Positions 33,777 to 35,309 of a DNA stretch of 64,000 nucleotides are shown piece after piece. Numbering within the stretch: position 1 is the stretch's first letter; each line of letters starts with the position of its first letter. A model generated the notes under the pieces. That model did not search any database. It saw nothing but the letters and a program-made list of their open reading frames with translations, and was not told where the DNA came from. A program made the translations under genes and the position numbers. The stretch comes from a virus, in IMG/VR virus record IMGVR_UViG_3300045988_159790; one strand, 5' to 3'.

Positions 33777-35309
33777 TTAATCTTCAACTTCTTTATAATT
33801 ATTAATCTTATCTGTTAATGCTCCATTAAGTACAGACTTTAAATCAATTCCTAAAGACTCTGCAAGTCCTTCAGAAATCTGTGTCACATTATTAACGATA
33901 TTACCAGATAACTTAGATGTCTGGTCACCAAACATCACAATCTTATCTACATTTGAATAGCCATCACCAATAGCCTGAGCGATTGCTGGTAACTGTTCAA
34001 AGTAAACTCTAAGTGCCTGTAACTGCATATCCTGCTTTGCGGCATCTCCATATGCAGCCATAGCCTCAGCTTTCTTCATAAGACCTTCAGCTTCTGCCTC
34101 TGTCTTAGCCTTTATTGCTGCGGCTTCCGCTTCACCTTTAGCTTTTGCAGCTTCAGCTTCTGCAATACCCTGCGCTTTAATAGCGTCTGCGAGAGCCTTC
34201 TTAGCTTCTGCCTGTCTTTCAGCTTCGAACTGCTGAGCTTCTGCCTGCTTCTGACGCTCAAATAACTCGGCTTCAGATGCTTTCTGAGTCTCATATAACT
34301 TAGCATCAGCTCTTTGCTGAGCAGCATATTTTTCTGCGTCTGCCTTCTTCTTAACATTAGCTTCAAGAGACTTCTCTGTAATCTCTACCTGCTTAGCCTG
34401 TAATTCAATTTCCTTCTCCTGACGAGCAAGGTTTGCATCTGCAGTCTTTATTTCACGAATCTTTCTCTGTTCCTCTGCCTGTATTTCCTTTGCAGCATCC
34501 GCAATTGCCTGTTTAGTATCTACTTCTTTCTGAAGCTCTGCCTTCTTGATGTCTAACTCATTCTGCTTTAAAGCAATCTGAGTATCAGCCTCAATCTGCG
34601 CCTGCTGTGCTTCCTGAGTTGCCTGTGCTGCGATAACGCTCTTCTCCTTTTCTGCCTTAGCCTTAGCATTAGCAATCTGTAACTGAGAAGCAACCTTTGC
34701 ATCGTTAGCCTCTTTTGCGGCTTCTGCCTGAGCAACGGCAATTTCCTTTTCAGAGATAGCTCTTGCAATTGCAGCATTCTTAGAAATCTTTACAATATTG
34801 TCTACACCTAAGTTTTCAATAACCTGGTTATCATCAATAAAGTTCTGAACATTGAATGAAACAATATCTAAGCCCATACCTGCAAGGCCTGGCTCTGCAT
34901 TAGTTTTAACCATTTCTGCGAATTTCTGTCTATCAGATACCATTTCTTCCAATCTCATCTGACCTACAATTTCACGCATATTACCTTCGAGAACCTCTCT
35001 AGCAACCTGACCAATATAATCTGGTCTCTGATTTAAAAAGTTCTGTGCGGCGAGTGCAAGCTTATCTTTATTATCTGAAACTTTTACATTAACTGCAGCA
35101 TCTACTCTAATATTGATATAATCTGCTGTTGGAACAGCACTTGAAGTTTTAACATCAATAGGAATTAACTTCAATGATACTTTATCAATTCTTTCTAAGA
35201 AAGGAATCTTAATAGACGCTTTACCAATAATTGTTCTCTTGCGAAGACCAGAAATGATAAATGCTGTATCTGGTGGAGCTTTTACATAGCCGCAAGCTAT
35301 AATCAGCAA
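33777..35309 (-). CDS. flotillin-like SPFH/band-7 protein (FloT/YqiK-like)
   Basis: N-terminal TM + SPFH domain; long EA-repeat coiled coil; C-terminal AEAEAAKAKGEAEAAAIKAKTEAEAEGLMKKAEAMAAYGDAAKQDMQLQALRVYFEQLPAIAQAI closely parallels flotillin C-terminus GEAEAAVIEAMGKAEAERMKLKAEAYQKYGDAAKMALVLEALPQIAAKIA. Confidence 0.75.
   Translation of the reverse strand: MLIIACGYVKAPPDTAFIISGLRKRTIIGKASIKIPFLERIDKVSLKLIPIDVKTSSAVPTADYINIRVDAAVNVKVSDNKDKLALAAQNFLNQRPDYIGQVAREVLEGNMREIVGQMRLEEMVSDRQKFAEMVKTNAEPGLAGMGLDIVSFNVQNFIDDNQVIENLGVDNIVKISKNAAIARAISEKEIAVAQAEAAKEANDAKVASQLQIANAKAKAEKEKSVIAAQATQEAQQAQIEADTQIALKQNELDIKKAELQKEVDTKQAIADAAKEIQAEEQRKIREIKTADANLARQEKEIELQAKQVEITEKSLEANVKKKADAEKYAAQQRADAKLYETQKASEAELFERQKQAEAQQFEAERQAEAKKALADAIKAQGIAEAEAAKAKGEAEAAAIKAKTEAEAEGLMKKAEAMAAYGDAAKQDMQLQALRVYFEQLPAIAQAIGDGYSNVDKIVMFGDQTSKLSGNIVNNVTQISEGLAESLGIDLKSVLNGALTDKINNYKEVED

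What the first reader, a model, noticed from the sequence alone, without database searches (positions are those of the whole stretch)
33777..35309. Flotillin-like SPFH protein immediately downstream of the MVP homolog
A bona fide flotillin-type protein follows the MVP homolog in the same transcriptional direction. It has an N-terminal membrane anchor, an SPFH domain, an EA-repeat coiled coil, and a C-terminus that aligns closely to flotillin (AEAYQKYGDAAK..LEALPQIAAKIA).

The MVP shoulder is itself SPFH-like, so the two genes may encode interacting scaffold components. One possibility is a membrane-associated vault or a microdomain-organising system taken over from the host. Flotillin genes are unusual cargo for a phage.
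Basis: partly seen in the sequence, partly recalled or inferred. Interest (0 to 1): 0.65.

Follow-up and report, generated by a model that had tools for sequence, protein, structure and literature searches.

The report
Frameshifted host-derived flotillin gene in phage
A large gut or rumen phage carries a genuine flotillin (membrane-scaffold) gene of the kind found in Lachnospiraceae bacteria, but it is not coupled to the neighbouring vault-protein gene, and in this strain a one-base insertion cuts off its start codon and half of its membrane anchor.

Summary
The ORF at 33777-35309 is real and lies on the minus strand. It is a true flotillin:
- Pfam Band_7 scores 48 bits.
- The family profile matches human flotillin-1 at E=5e-58 across the SPFH domain, coiled coil and C-terminal domain.
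- The nearest bacterial relatives are Lachnospiraceae flotillins/YqiK (62-67% identity).

Three parts of the finding fail.
- **Position.** The gene lies 5' of the MVP gene, not downstream. An intrinsic terminator, a 113-codon gene and two strong promoters separate them, giving three transcription units.
- **Membrane anchor.** The stated ORF has no full anchor. The true start is ATG 35370. A T6 run (T5 in relatives) shifts the frame and removes 20 codons. The same allele is on 8 independent contigs.
- **Synteny.** Linkage with MVP is loose. Only 11 of 31 fully flanked MVP loci have a flotillin within 10 kb, at variable positions. Only 5 of 80 phage flotillin loci have an MVP nearby.

Flotillin is not rare in uncultured large phages: at least 195 IMG/VR stretches encode a relative.

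The likeliest role is an accessory membrane scaffold, independent of MVP, that is impaired in this strain. Function during infection is inferred, not shown. This is a new member of a known kind, of moderate interest.

The parts
33777..35309 (-). Flotillin reading frame as reported. It covers the SPFH domain, the EA-rich coiled coil and the flotillin C-terminal domain. It begins at a TTG inside the membrane helix.
   Evidence: Band_7 scores 48.3 bits. The family profile matches flotillin-1 (9bq2_B) at E=5e-58 in three collinear stretches.
33777..35370 (-). Full flotillin gene as it exists in close relatives: 530 codons, starting at ATG 35370-35368. In the window it is broken by a +1 insertion.
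   Evidence: P0001 and P0121 (530 aa, 98-99% identical) start MSVFSSLVPFLPIAIIVIALLLIIACGYVKAPPD.
35338..35343 (-). T6 homopolymer (T5 in relatives). This is the frameshift site that separates the first 20 codons, including the start codon and half of the membrane helix.
   Evidence: alignment with L001 and L002; indel list. The same allele is on 8 contigs.
35378..35383 (-). Shine-Dalgarno sequence AAGGAG, serving ATG 35370.
   Evidence: Read directly from the sequence.
35349..35366 (-). GTG 35366-35364 followed by an in-frame TAG at 35351-35349, in the flotillin frame. This is the only route to an anchored product without frameshifting, and it requires amber read-through.
   Evidence: It is a speculative route; see the rival explanations.
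35416..35685 (-). 89-codon gene of unknown function, co-transcribed upstream of the flotillin gene.
   Evidence: no family hits. Homologues also sit directly 5' of MVP in phages that lack flotillin there (L018, L042, L045).
35717..35745 (-). Promoter of the orf89-flotillin unit: TTGATA, 17 nt, then TG-extended TATAAT.
   Evidence: 11 of 12 matches, TG present. (TGATATAAT occurs 21 times in the window against 3.3 expected).
33748..33775 (-). Intrinsic terminator immediately after the flotillin stop codon.
   Evidence: 11-bp stem, 5 G-C pairs, T tail. It is conserved in L001 and L002.
33328..33673 (-). 113-codon gene between the flotillin and MVP genes, with its own promoter (-10 at 33719-33727). 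In the window it is also frameshifted, by an A6 run at 33589-33594 (A5 in L001; CAGAAAG in L002).
30729..33236 (-). MVP homologue (835 aa). It forms a separate transcription unit with a promoter (-10 at 33289-33297) and a terminator at 30694-30714.
   Evidence: MVP_shoulder 74 bits, Vault_3 33 bits. (rat MVP 4hl8, E=3.5e-14)..

Best explanation
**What it is.** The gene is a FloT/YqiK-type flotillin of Lachnospiraceae ancestry. It is carried as an accessory gene by a roughly 145-kb tailed phage.

**How the intact form would work (close relatives).**
- It is transcribed with a small upstream gene (orf89) from a strong sigma-A-type promoter with an extended -10 element.
- The transcript ends at its own terminator.
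- The 530-aa product would insert its N-terminal hydrophobic helix into the host cytoplasmic membrane.
- Like cellular flotillins, it would then oligomerise through the SPFH domain, the EA-rich coiled coil and the C-terminal domain into a membrane-attached dome or microdomain.
- This would alter membrane organisation or fluidity in the infected cell.

**Relation to MVP.** It acts independently of the neighbouring MVP homologue. The two genes simply share a variable accessory region.

**State in this strain.** A one-base insertion (T5 to T6) cuts off the start codon and half of the anchor. The allele is probably null or strongly hypomorphic. The lesion looks recent, because the rest of the gene still shows purifying selection.

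**Shown:** identity, gene architecture, transcription signals, the frameshift, and the distribution across phages.
**Inferred:** cage formation, membrane targeting, and any role during infection.
For: **Identity**
- Band_7 scores 48 bits. NCBIfam FloT is the best hit at 215 bits.
- The family profile matches human flotillin-1 and flotillin-2 at E=5e-58 and 4e-50 over all three regions.
- Foldseek top hits are flotillin complex chains at E~1e-15.

**Host origin**
- All 80 loci kept from the genome scan (579 relatives found) are 55-69% identical, and most are Lachnospiraceae.
- P0119, named YqiK, sits in a bacterial context next to NRPS genes.
- The Dorea sp. 5-2 homologue lies between housekeeping genes.

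**Membrane anchor as a family feature**
- A start codon followed by a hydrophobic helix is intact in 60 of 63 distinct viral loci and 78 of 79 bacterial loci.

**Frameshift**
- The alignment with relatives shows the inserted T.
- Translations of both frames confirm the break.
- The identical 510-aa allele is on 8 contigs. One is an independent megahit contig 99.987% identical to the window.

**Selection**
- Codon changes on the window branch are 32 synonymous to 5 non-synonymous.

**Independence from MVP**
- Terminator and promoters separate the genes.
- Synteny counts are low.
- Flotillin lineages next to MVP are heterogeneous.

**Phage identity and cellular flotillin behaviour**
- The window encodes replication, topoisomerase II and RNA-repair genes and 23 tRNAs.
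- Human flotillin forms a 44-mer membrane-attached dome (PMC13000311 abstract).
- Bacterial flotillins control membrane fluidity (PMC7360373).
Against: - No experiment or expression data exist for any phage flotillin, so the role in infection is inference from cellular homologues.
- The AF2 monomer model is poor (pLDDT 61.5, pTM 0.31), so the cage architecture is not modelled.
- The strong purifying signal (32:5) and the persistence of the frameshifted allele on 8 contigs could mean it is still expressed in some way.
- About a third of MVP loci do have a flotillin within 10 kb. This is more than random placement in a 145-kb genome would give, so a loose functional link cannot be excluded.
Confidence: 0.6

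Rival explanations
1. **MVP-flotillin co-scaffold.** The two SPFH-related cage formers interact and build a membrane-associated vault or microdomain system together.
For: - The two genes are neighbours on the same strand in this phage and its closest relatives.
- 11 of 31 fully flanked MVP loci have a flotillin within 10 kb.
- The flotillin model structurally matches the MVP shoulder and cap-helix at E~1e-4.
- There is a weak collinear BLASTP similarity (E=0.005 in the coiled coil).
Against: - The genes lie in separate transcription units, with a terminator, an intervening gene and two promoters between them.
- Distance and order vary: 0.45-8.4 kb, 5' or 3' of MVP.
- 20 of 31 MVP loci have no flotillin within 10 kb. 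75 of 80 phage flotillin loci have no MVP within 10 kb.
- MVP is conserved and intact, while flotillin is frameshifted in a strain recovered in 8 assemblies.
- The flotillins next to MVP do not look co-inherited with it.
Confidence: 0.05
2. **The allele is still productive through amber read-through.**
- Translation would start at GTG 35366 and read the in-frame TAG (35351-35349) as an amino acid.
- The product would be MFLVH(Q)FHFLPIAIIVIVFLLIIACGYV..., with a complete membrane helix.
- Flotillin synthesis would then depend on an amber suppressor tRNA, so it would be gated in time.
For: - The flotillin frame is open from the TAG through the whole helix. With TAG read as Gln, the Kyte-Doolittle score over 19 residues is 2.98.
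- Purifying selection continues on this branch.
- In the same strain, the Thg1-like gene has an in-frame TAG exactly at a Gln that is invariant in 25 relatives. That allele is on 9 contigs.
- Related phages encode tRNAs with a CTA anticodon (L025, L034, L035, L047, L049).
- Related phages also carry many in-frame TAGs in conserved genes, including one inside a flotillin gene (L078).
- L006, L008 and L043 have ATG-ATT-TAG followed in frame by the flotillin membrane helix.
Against: - None of the tRNAs found in the roughly 72 kb seen for this phage (23 in the window; two more in the flank) is a suppressor.
- Reading TAG as sense gives no more coding coverage than reading TGA as sense.
- The upstream sequence is unchanged from relatives, so the GTG and TAG arrangement is a by-product of the insertion rather than an adaptation.
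- The GTG is 11 nt from the Shine-Dalgarno sequence.
- The neighbouring 113-codon gene has a frameshift that no read-through can rescue, so plain lesions do occur in this strain.
Confidence: 0.2
3. **A more specific membrane function.** Intact phage flotillins might act in a dedicated membrane-protection, anti-defence or protease-control role. Options are:
- working with PspA-like or LemA-like partners to keep the membrane sealed against abortive-infection pores or premature lysis;
- caging or regulating the host FtsH protease, as HflK/C and B. subtilis flotillins do.
For: - In 25 loci of another phage clade, the gene just 3' of flotillin encodes a TM plus coiled-coil protein. It has a faint, nearly full-length PspA/IM30 match (E=0.096).
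- LemA plus a two-TM protein (phrog_3886) lie directly 5' of flotillin in 6 other viral loci, and 2.5 kb upstream in the window.
- A B. subtilis SPFH protein links PspA to the membrane (PMC8581546).
- The HflK/C-FtsH cage appears among the structural neighbours (7wi3).
Against: - The PspA hit is far below threshold (12.7 bits against 33.9), and there is no sequence match in the PDB.
- The partner genes differ between phage clades.
- No PADLOC defence-family hits were found for flotillin or its neighbours.
- There is no direct evidence of any kind.
Confidence: 0.15

Closest known systems
Bacterial flotillins of the FloT/YqiK type (B. subtilis FloT/YuaG, E. coli YqiK, Lachnospiraceae 'inner membrane protein YqiK' GFI36059.1)
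   Same: - The architecture is the same over the full length: N-terminal hydrophobic anchor (in intact relatives), SPFH domain, long EA-rich coiled coil and flotillin C-terminal domain.
- Identity to Lachnospiraceae proteins is 62-67%.
- NCBIfam FloT is the best family hit.
   Different: - It is encoded by a lytic-type phage.
- It scores 215 bits against the 700-bit equivalog cut-off of B. subtilis FloT.
- No NfeD-type partner gene is adjacent.
- In this strain the anchor is split off by a frameshift.
Eukaryotic flotillin-1/flotillin-2 (reggie) complex, PDB 9BQ2 / 9L3G
   Same: - The family profile aligns to flotillin-1 at E=5e-58 over the SPFH domain, coiled coil and C-terminal domain.
- It is the top Foldseek hit, at 28% identity over about 490 columns.
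   Different: - Eukaryotic flotillins attach by a hairpin plus acylation, and form a 44-mer hetero-oligomer of two paralogues (PMC13000311).
- The phage has one gene and a predicted single N-terminal helix.
- The oligomeric state is unknown.
SPFH/Band 7 genes noted in cultured phages (T4-like 44RR, Aeh1, RB43; Xanthomonas phage X1)
   Same: They are phage-borne SPFH-domain proteins listed as accessory or host-related genes with no assigned function (PMC1524935, PMC13384950).
   Different: - Those were reported only as weak Band_7 domain hits (E 1e-5 to 1e-6), not as full-length flotillins with the flotillin C-terminal domain.
- No sequence comparison with them was run here.
Phage major vault protein homologues (Caudoviricetes sp. 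ctOa11, ct2Ri15; preprint 10.1101/2023.11.10.566534)
   Same: - The neighbouring 835-aa gene belongs to this already reported kind of phage MVP.
- The preprint also found that gene order around MVP differs between phages.
   Different: - The preprint does not mention flotillin or SPFH genes (0 occurrences).
- It reported two phages. Here MVP homologues were found in 49 IMG/VR loci and in 462-735-kb huge phages.

Membership tests
Flotillin family (FloT/YqiK/reggie) within the SPFH superfamily | SPFH/Band 7 domain | tested here: met
   Pfam PF01145 scores 48.3 bits (cut-off 23.6), residues 18-186. The domain aligns to flotillin-1 residues 5-213.
Flotillin family (FloT/YqiK/reggie) within the SPFH superfamily | Flotillin-type EA-rich coiled coil plus conserved C-terminal domain | tested here: met
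   - Profile stretches 2 and 3 align to flotillin-1 residues 181-312 and 298-419.
- Pfam PF15975 scores 23.2 bits, below the 27-bit cut-off, for the window ORF. It is recorded for most homologues.
- 67% of residues 171-420 are A, E, K or Q.
Flotillin family (FloT/YqiK/reggie) within the SPFH superfamily | N-terminal membrane anchor (hydrophobic helix or hairpin) contiguous with the SPFH domain | tested here: not met
   - In the window, the helix is split from its start codon by a +1 frameshift.
- The feature is met in close relatives (P0001, P0121) and in 60 of 63 viral and 78 of 79 bacterial loci.
- The gene family qualifies; this allele does not.
Flotillin family (FloT/YqiK/reggie) within the SPFH superfamily | Assembly into a membrane-attached oligomeric cage or microdomain | not testable with these tools
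   Only a low-confidence monomer model was obtained (pLDDT 61.5). This needs cryo-EM or fluorescence microscopy.
B. subtilis FloT equivalog (NCBIfam NF058507) | Score above the curated equivalog cut-off | tested here: not met
   215.2 bits against a cut-off of 700. The gene is in the same family but is not an equivalog.
Bacterial flotillin-NfeD operon | Adjacent NfeD-family gene (TM segments plus OB fold) | tested here: not met
   - No Pfam hit for the co-transcribed orf89, the 113-codon gene or other neighbours.
- The Dorea sp. 5-2 homologue also shows no NfeD-like neighbour by reading of the ORFs. No profile search was run on those ORFs.
Hypothetical MVP-flotillin two-gene system | Co-transcription or immediate adjacency | tested here: not met
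   A terminator (33748-33775), an intervening gene and two promoters lie between the genes.
Hypothetical MVP-flotillin two-gene system | Conserved synteny across related phages | tested here: not met
   - 11 of 31 fully flanked MVP loci have a flotillin within 10 kb, at variable distance and side.
- 5 of 80 flotillin loci have an MVP within 10 kb.
Amber-recoded phage (TAG read as an amino acid) | Phage-encoded suppressor tRNA (anticodon CUA) | tested here: inconclusive
   - None of the tRNAs found in about 72 kb of this phage is a suppressor.
- The remaining roughly 73 kb of the genome was not seen.
- Suppressor-type tRNAs are present in related phages.
Amber-recoded phage (TAG read as an amino acid) | In-frame TAG codons at conserved sense positions, and a TAG-specific gain in coding density | tested here: inconclusive
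   - There is one clear case: Thg1-like, TAG at an invariant Gln.
- There is no TAG-specific gain in coding coverage.

The most novel reading that the evidence does not exclude
Phage flotillin and phage MVP are two relatives of the same SPFH-plus-helix cage architecture. They might cooperate in infected Lachnospiraceae cells to build a membrane-tethered, vault-like compartment. The loose linkage seen in about a third of MVP phages would then be a remnant of that partnership. A second unexcluded novelty is that amber codons at the 5' end of flotillin genes make its synthesis depend on a phage suppressor tRNA. The candidates are this strain, and L006, L008 and L043.
Probability: 0.05. Interest if true: 0.85.

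Novelty: new member of a known kind. Interest (0 to 1): 0.35.

Why it matters
**Why it matters.** Flotillins are conserved membrane-microdomain scaffolds, and their bacterial roles are still debated. This analysis shows that full-length flotillins are recurrent cargo of large uncultured phages:
- at least 195 IMG/VR stretches encode a relative;
- the contigs are mostly 100-200 kb, with some up to 424 kb;
- the genes are highly conserved (75% mean column identity across 14 homologues), with a 32:5 synonymous to non-synonymous ratio on the one branch tested.

No paper found in four literature searches discusses this. Such phages could offer a natural handle on what flotillin overexpression does to a bacterial membrane during infection.

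**For this finding.** The main value is corrective:
- the attractive 'vault plus flotillin' pairing is not supported;
- the gene copy in this window is damaged;
- annotation of this locus should use the 530-codon gene with a noted frameshift.

Tried and rejected
- **DNA-level search of GenBank phages with the 6-kb region.** It gave only three weak hits to huge phages, in the MVP gene. It did not help with flotillin.
- **PHROGs.** It gave only a weak 'lipoprotein' family hit for flotillin (phrog_200, E=2e-6) and nothing for MVP.
- **PADLOC.** There were no defence-family hits for flotillin, MVP or seven neighbours.
- **Alternative genetic code as an explanation of the missing start.** Coding coverage is 0.82 under code 11. 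It is 0.85 with TAG as sense and 0.83 with TGA as sense, so there is no TAG-specific gain.
- **Suppressor tRNA search.** None was found in the window or in 8 kb beyond its end. The tRNA-CTA genes of relatives are too diverse for an exact-pattern scan.
- **Programmed frameshift at the T run.** Rejected because relatives have T5 in frame, and because 60 of 63 viral flotillin genes have an ordinary start followed by a TM helix.
- **NfeD-like partner.** No Pfam hits for orf89, the 113-codon gene, orf178 or orf259.
- **PspA identity of the downstream gene in another clade.** Pfam gave E=0.096, and there is no sequence hit in the PDB. It is kept only as a lead.
- **AF2 monomer model.** Confidence is low. 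The Foldseek ranking was used only as corroboration of the sequence result.
- **NJ tree of 144 flotillins.** I first read the leaf order as showing an MVP-linked clade. The identity matrix and common-ancestor check showed that reading was wrong, so no monophyly is claimed.
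Full report
**1. What is at the coordinates**

All long ORFs in the window lie on the minus strand. Stop-to-stop ORFs of at least 100 aa cover 82% of the minus strand and 6% of the plus strand.

The ORF 33777..35309 (-) has 510 codons and a TTG start. Its family assignments are:
- Pfam Band_7/SPFH: 48.3 bits, cut-off 23.6, residues 18-186.
- Pfam Flot: 23.2 bits, just under its 27-bit cut-off, residues 394-460.
- NCBIfam: the best family is the FloT model, at 215 bits. 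This is far below the 700-bit equivalog cut-off.

I aligned 14 homologues and searched the PDB with the resulting profile.
- It hits human flotillin-1 (9bq2_B, E=5e-58) and flotillin-2 (E=4e-50).
- The match falls in three collinear stretches: SPFH domain, coiled coil and C-terminal domain.
- The next family, QmcA, scores only E=3e-4.

An AF2 model of the 98%-identical full-length homologue is of low confidence (pLDDT 61.5). It still has the expected order: N-terminal helix, alpha/beta SPFH domain, very long helices and C-terminal helices. Foldseek ranks flotillin complex chains first (E~1e-15). Stomatin, prohibitin, HflK/C and, at E~1e-4, MVP follow.

Residues 171-420 are 67% A, E, K or Q, with 31 EA/AE dipeptides.

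The core observation, a bona fide flotillin-type protein, is confirmed.

**2. What is wrong with the description**

*(a) Orientation and adjacency.* Transcription runs from high to low coordinates. The flotillin gene is therefore 5' of the MVP gene (30729..33236, -), not downstream of it.

The 540 bp between the two genes contain four features:
- an intrinsic terminator right after the flotillin stop codon (33748-33775; 11-bp stem with a T tail);
- a promoter;
- a 113-codon gene (33328-33673);
- a second promoter.

The promoter motif TGATATAAT is an extended -10 element, preceded by TTGATA at 17 nt.
- It occurs 21 times in the window against 3.3 expected.
- 19 of the 21 copies are on the coding strand.
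- Three copies fall in this region: 35717-35725, 33719-33727 and 33289-33297.

There are therefore three transcription units:
- orf89 plus flotillin;
- the 113-codon gene;
- MVP, which ends at the terminator 30694-30714.

*(b) Membrane anchor.* The reported ORF begins at a TTG with no ribosome-binding site, in the middle of the hydrophobic helix.
- Upstream in the same frame, the helix continues (FHFLPIAIIVIVF...) back to a TAG, with no start codon.
- A well-placed ATG at 35370, behind AAGGAG, opens a different frame. That frame reads MSVFSSLVPFF and then runs into nonsense.
- Relatives L001 and L002 (flotillin 99% and 97% amino-acid identity) have T5 where the window has T6 (35338-35343).
- With T5, the ATG frame runs straight into the flotillin frame, giving MSVFSSLVPFLPIAIIVIALLLIIACGYVKAPPD....

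**3. Is the frameshift real?**

- The exact 510-aa product is recorded on 8 contigs from ENA, Logan and JGI.
- One of them is a 145-kb megahit contig. It is 99.987% identical to the window over 7.5 kb and carries the same T6.
- The window and L001 are about 95% identical in DNA over 16 kb. Within that stretch, the only uncompensated single-base indels inside genes, other than two at the extreme ends of the HNH gene, are this one and an A6/A5 difference in the adjacent 113-codon gene.
- On the window-specific branch, the flotillin gene has 32 synonymous and 5 non-synonymous codon changes. The gene was therefore under purifying selection until recently, or it still is.
- An intact start codon followed by a TM helix is the rule: 60 of 63 distinct viral and 78 of 79 bacterial loci have it. 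The window allele is an exception, not a family trait.

**4. Who carries such genes**

The window is a phage. It encodes:
- Dda-like, DnaB-like and RecJ-like replication proteins and a DNA ligase;
- a two-subunit topoisomerase II;
- a set of RNA-repair genes: RNA ligase, polynucleotide kinase, a Thg1-like enzyme, PhoH with a PIN domain, and a nucleotidyltransferase;
- a pre-neck appendage protein;
- 23 tRNAs.

Related contigs are mostly 120-195 kb.

*Flotillin homologues.*
- They are abundant in the protein database.
- Among species-representative genomes, the loci kept from the scan are 55-69% identical. Most are Lachnospiraceae: Dorea, Acetatifactor, Bariatricus, Faecalicatena, Butyrivibrio and Blautia.
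- These sit in ordinary chromosomal contexts.
- In IMG/VR, two short peptide patterns alone recover 195 stretches that encode a relative.
- In deposited phage genomes, only 9 of 50,697 records match, mostly fragments.
- Four literature searches found no paper discussing phage-encoded full-length flotillins. They found only lists of SPFH-domain ORFs in T4-like phages and a Xanthomonas phage (PMC1524935, PMC13384950).

*Phage MVPs.* These were already reported in a 2023 preprint, which does not mention flotillin.

**5. Test of the MVP-flotillin link**

*From the MVP side.*
- MVP homologues were found in 49 IMG/VR loci (53-98% identity).
- Of the 31 loci with full 10-kb flanks, 11 have a flotillin within 10 kb.
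- The flotillin is always on the same strand, but it lies 0.45-4.3 kb 5' of MVP or 7-8.4 kb 3' of it.

*From the flotillin side.*
- Only 5 of the 80 best phage flotillin loci have an MVP within 10 kb.
- More frequent neighbours are PhoH, a phosphoesterase, and clade-specific small genes.

*Sequence relationships.*
- The flotillins that lie near MVP are heterogeneous. They are 52-58% (L028, L029, L006, L005, L036) or 62-63% (L077, L083) identical to this one.
- This one is 65-66% identical to Lachnospiraceae proteins.
- I initially read an NJ tree as showing an MVP-linked clade. The identity matrix showed that reading was unfounded, so I make no monophyly claim.

*Other observations.*
- The orf89 homologue sits directly 5' of MVP in phages without flotillin at that position (L018, L042, L045). 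This suggests that flotillin, with the 113-codon gene, is an insertable or deletable cassette in a variable accessory region.
- Direct sequence similarity between the two proteins is marginal (E=0.005 in the coiled coil). The structural similarity is real, but it says nothing about interaction.

I conclude that the pairing hypothesis fails its own stated test ('never syntenic' is too strong, but synteny is neither tight nor general).

**6. Most likely mechanism**

*Shown:*
- It is a flotillin gene of Lachnospiraceae type in a phage.
- It has a sigma-A-type promoter and its own terminator.
- The family is highly conserved across phage homologues (75% mean column identity).
- The copy in this window is frameshifted.

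*Inferred from cellular flotillins:*
- The intact protein anchors in the cytoplasmic membrane.
- It oligomerises into a dome or microdomain (human 44-mer; PMC13000311).
- It changes membrane organisation or fluidity (B. subtilis; PMC7360373) to the phage's benefit.

More specific ideas have only faint support:
- membrane sealing together with PspA-like or LemA-like partners (PMC8581546);
- control of the host protease FtsH.

In this strain the product is probably absent or scarce.

**7. An unexplained thread**

- In the flotillin frame, a GTG (35366) precedes the TAG (35351-35349). If TAG were read as Gln, an anchored protein would still be made.
- The same strain has an in-frame TAG in its Thg1-like gene, exactly at a Gln that is invariant in 25 relatives. 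That allele is on 9 contigs.
- Related phages encode tRNAs with a CTA anticodon.
- Related phages also carry many in-frame TAGs in conserved genes, including one inside a flotillin gene.
- L006, L008 and L043 have ATG-ATT-TAG followed in frame by the flotillin helix.

Evidence against read-through in this phage:
- None of the tRNAs found in the roughly 72 kb seen is a suppressor.
- There is no TAG-specific gain in coding density.
- The neighbouring frameshift cannot be rescued this way.

I give this reading about 0.2.

**8. Verdict**

- The protein identification is right.
- The positional description is wrong: it is neither 'immediately downstream' nor anchored in the ORF as given.
- The MVP-coupling idea is not supported.
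- The object is a new member of a known kind, a phage-borne flotillin. In this window it is present as a damaged allele.
- Interest is moderate, at 0.35.

Noticed in passing
window 33328-33673 (-), A-run 33589-33594: The 113-codon gene between the flotillin and MVP genes is also frameshifted in the window: A6, against A5 in L001 and CAGAAAG in L002. Gene callers report only a 37-aa stub on an independent contig. It has no family hits and was found only in the two closest relatives.
   Followed up: partly
window 39786-40655 (-), TAG at 40482-40484: The Thg1-like (tRNA-His guanylyltransferase family) gene has an in-frame TAG exactly at a Gln that is invariant (MQ[E/Q/D]T) in 25 related phages. 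The same allele is on 9 contigs. It is either a nonsense mutation or a sign of TAG=Gln decoding.
   Followed up: partly
L025:20641-20716, L034:1705-1779, L035:1448-1522, L047:21151-21226, L049:20480-20576, L026:3628-3703: Related MVP-carrying phages encode tRNAs with a CTA anticodon (amber suppressor type). One encodes a tRNA with a TCA anticodon. Several related loci have multiple in-frame TAGs in conserved genes: PhoH in L034 and L035, GIY-YIG in L026 and L037, and PhoH and topoisomerase II in L090 and L094. Stop-codon recoding therefore occurs in this phage group.
   Followed up: partly
L006:~7530-7611, L008:~7330-7415, L043:~3745-3829; L078:10517: In three phages, the flotillin gene reads ATG ATT TAG and then continues in frame through the membrane helix, with no other start codon. 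In L078, a TAG lies inside the flotillin SPFH region. These flotillin genes may need amber read-through.
   Followed up: partly
window, 21 sites, e.g. 35717-35725, 33719-33727, 33289-33297, 24632-24640, 41124-41132: The extended -10 promoter motif TGATATAAT occurs 21 times against 3.3 expected. 19 copies are on the coding strand, and those examined lie in intergenic gaps and have TTGATA 17 nt upstream. This looks like the phage's standard host-RNA-polymerase promoter.
   Followed up: partly
window 38662-39237 and 37868-38647 (-); L125, L128, L129, L132-L134: A LemA-family gene and a two-TM gene (phrog_3886) form a pair. The pair lies 2.5 kb upstream of flotillin in the window and directly 5' of flotillin in six other viral loci (contigs up to 411 kb). 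This may be a membrane-protein module.
   Followed up: no
L091-L116 (e.g. L112:11452-12186): In a separate clade of about 160-kb phages (25 loci), the gene just 3' of flotillin encodes a 244-aa TM plus coiled-coil protein. It has a faint, nearly full-length PspA/IM30 match (E=0.096, 12.7 bits). There is no sequence hit in the PDB.
   Followed up: partly
GenBank LR756500.1:20949-23387, LR756501.1/LR756503.1:17659-19614: MVP homologues (39-44% identity, up to 98% coverage) are present in 462-kb and 735-kb 'huge phage' genomes. Phage MVPs therefore extend well beyond the two gut phages in the 2023 preprint.
   Followed up: no
L183 (CALCFD010000051.1, 147,780 bp, labelled uncultured Eubacterium sp. 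MAG): This 'bacterial' MAG contig carries flotillin flanked by phage-type phosphoesterase and PIN-PhoH genes (46% identity to the window's PhoH). It also has in-frame TAGs. It is probably a mis-binned phage genome.
   Followed up: partly
window 46256-47034 and 57895-63946: The window has 23 tRNA genes in two arrays, and two more lie just beyond its end (L216). One is an unusual tRNA-Asn with an ATT anticodon (63015-63084).
   Followed up: no
window 25200-29744, 35723-37259, 39786-41093, 44722-46197: There is a dense set of RNA and tRNA repair or modification genes:
- RNA ligase and a polynucleotide-kinase-like gene;
- two phosphoesterases;
- PIN-PhoH;
- an RlaP-like nucleotidyltransferase;
- the Thg1-like gene;
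- a YqeY-like gene;
- a phrog_850 'RNA-binding protein'.

This suggests a counter-measure against host tRNA-cleaving defences.
   Followed up: no
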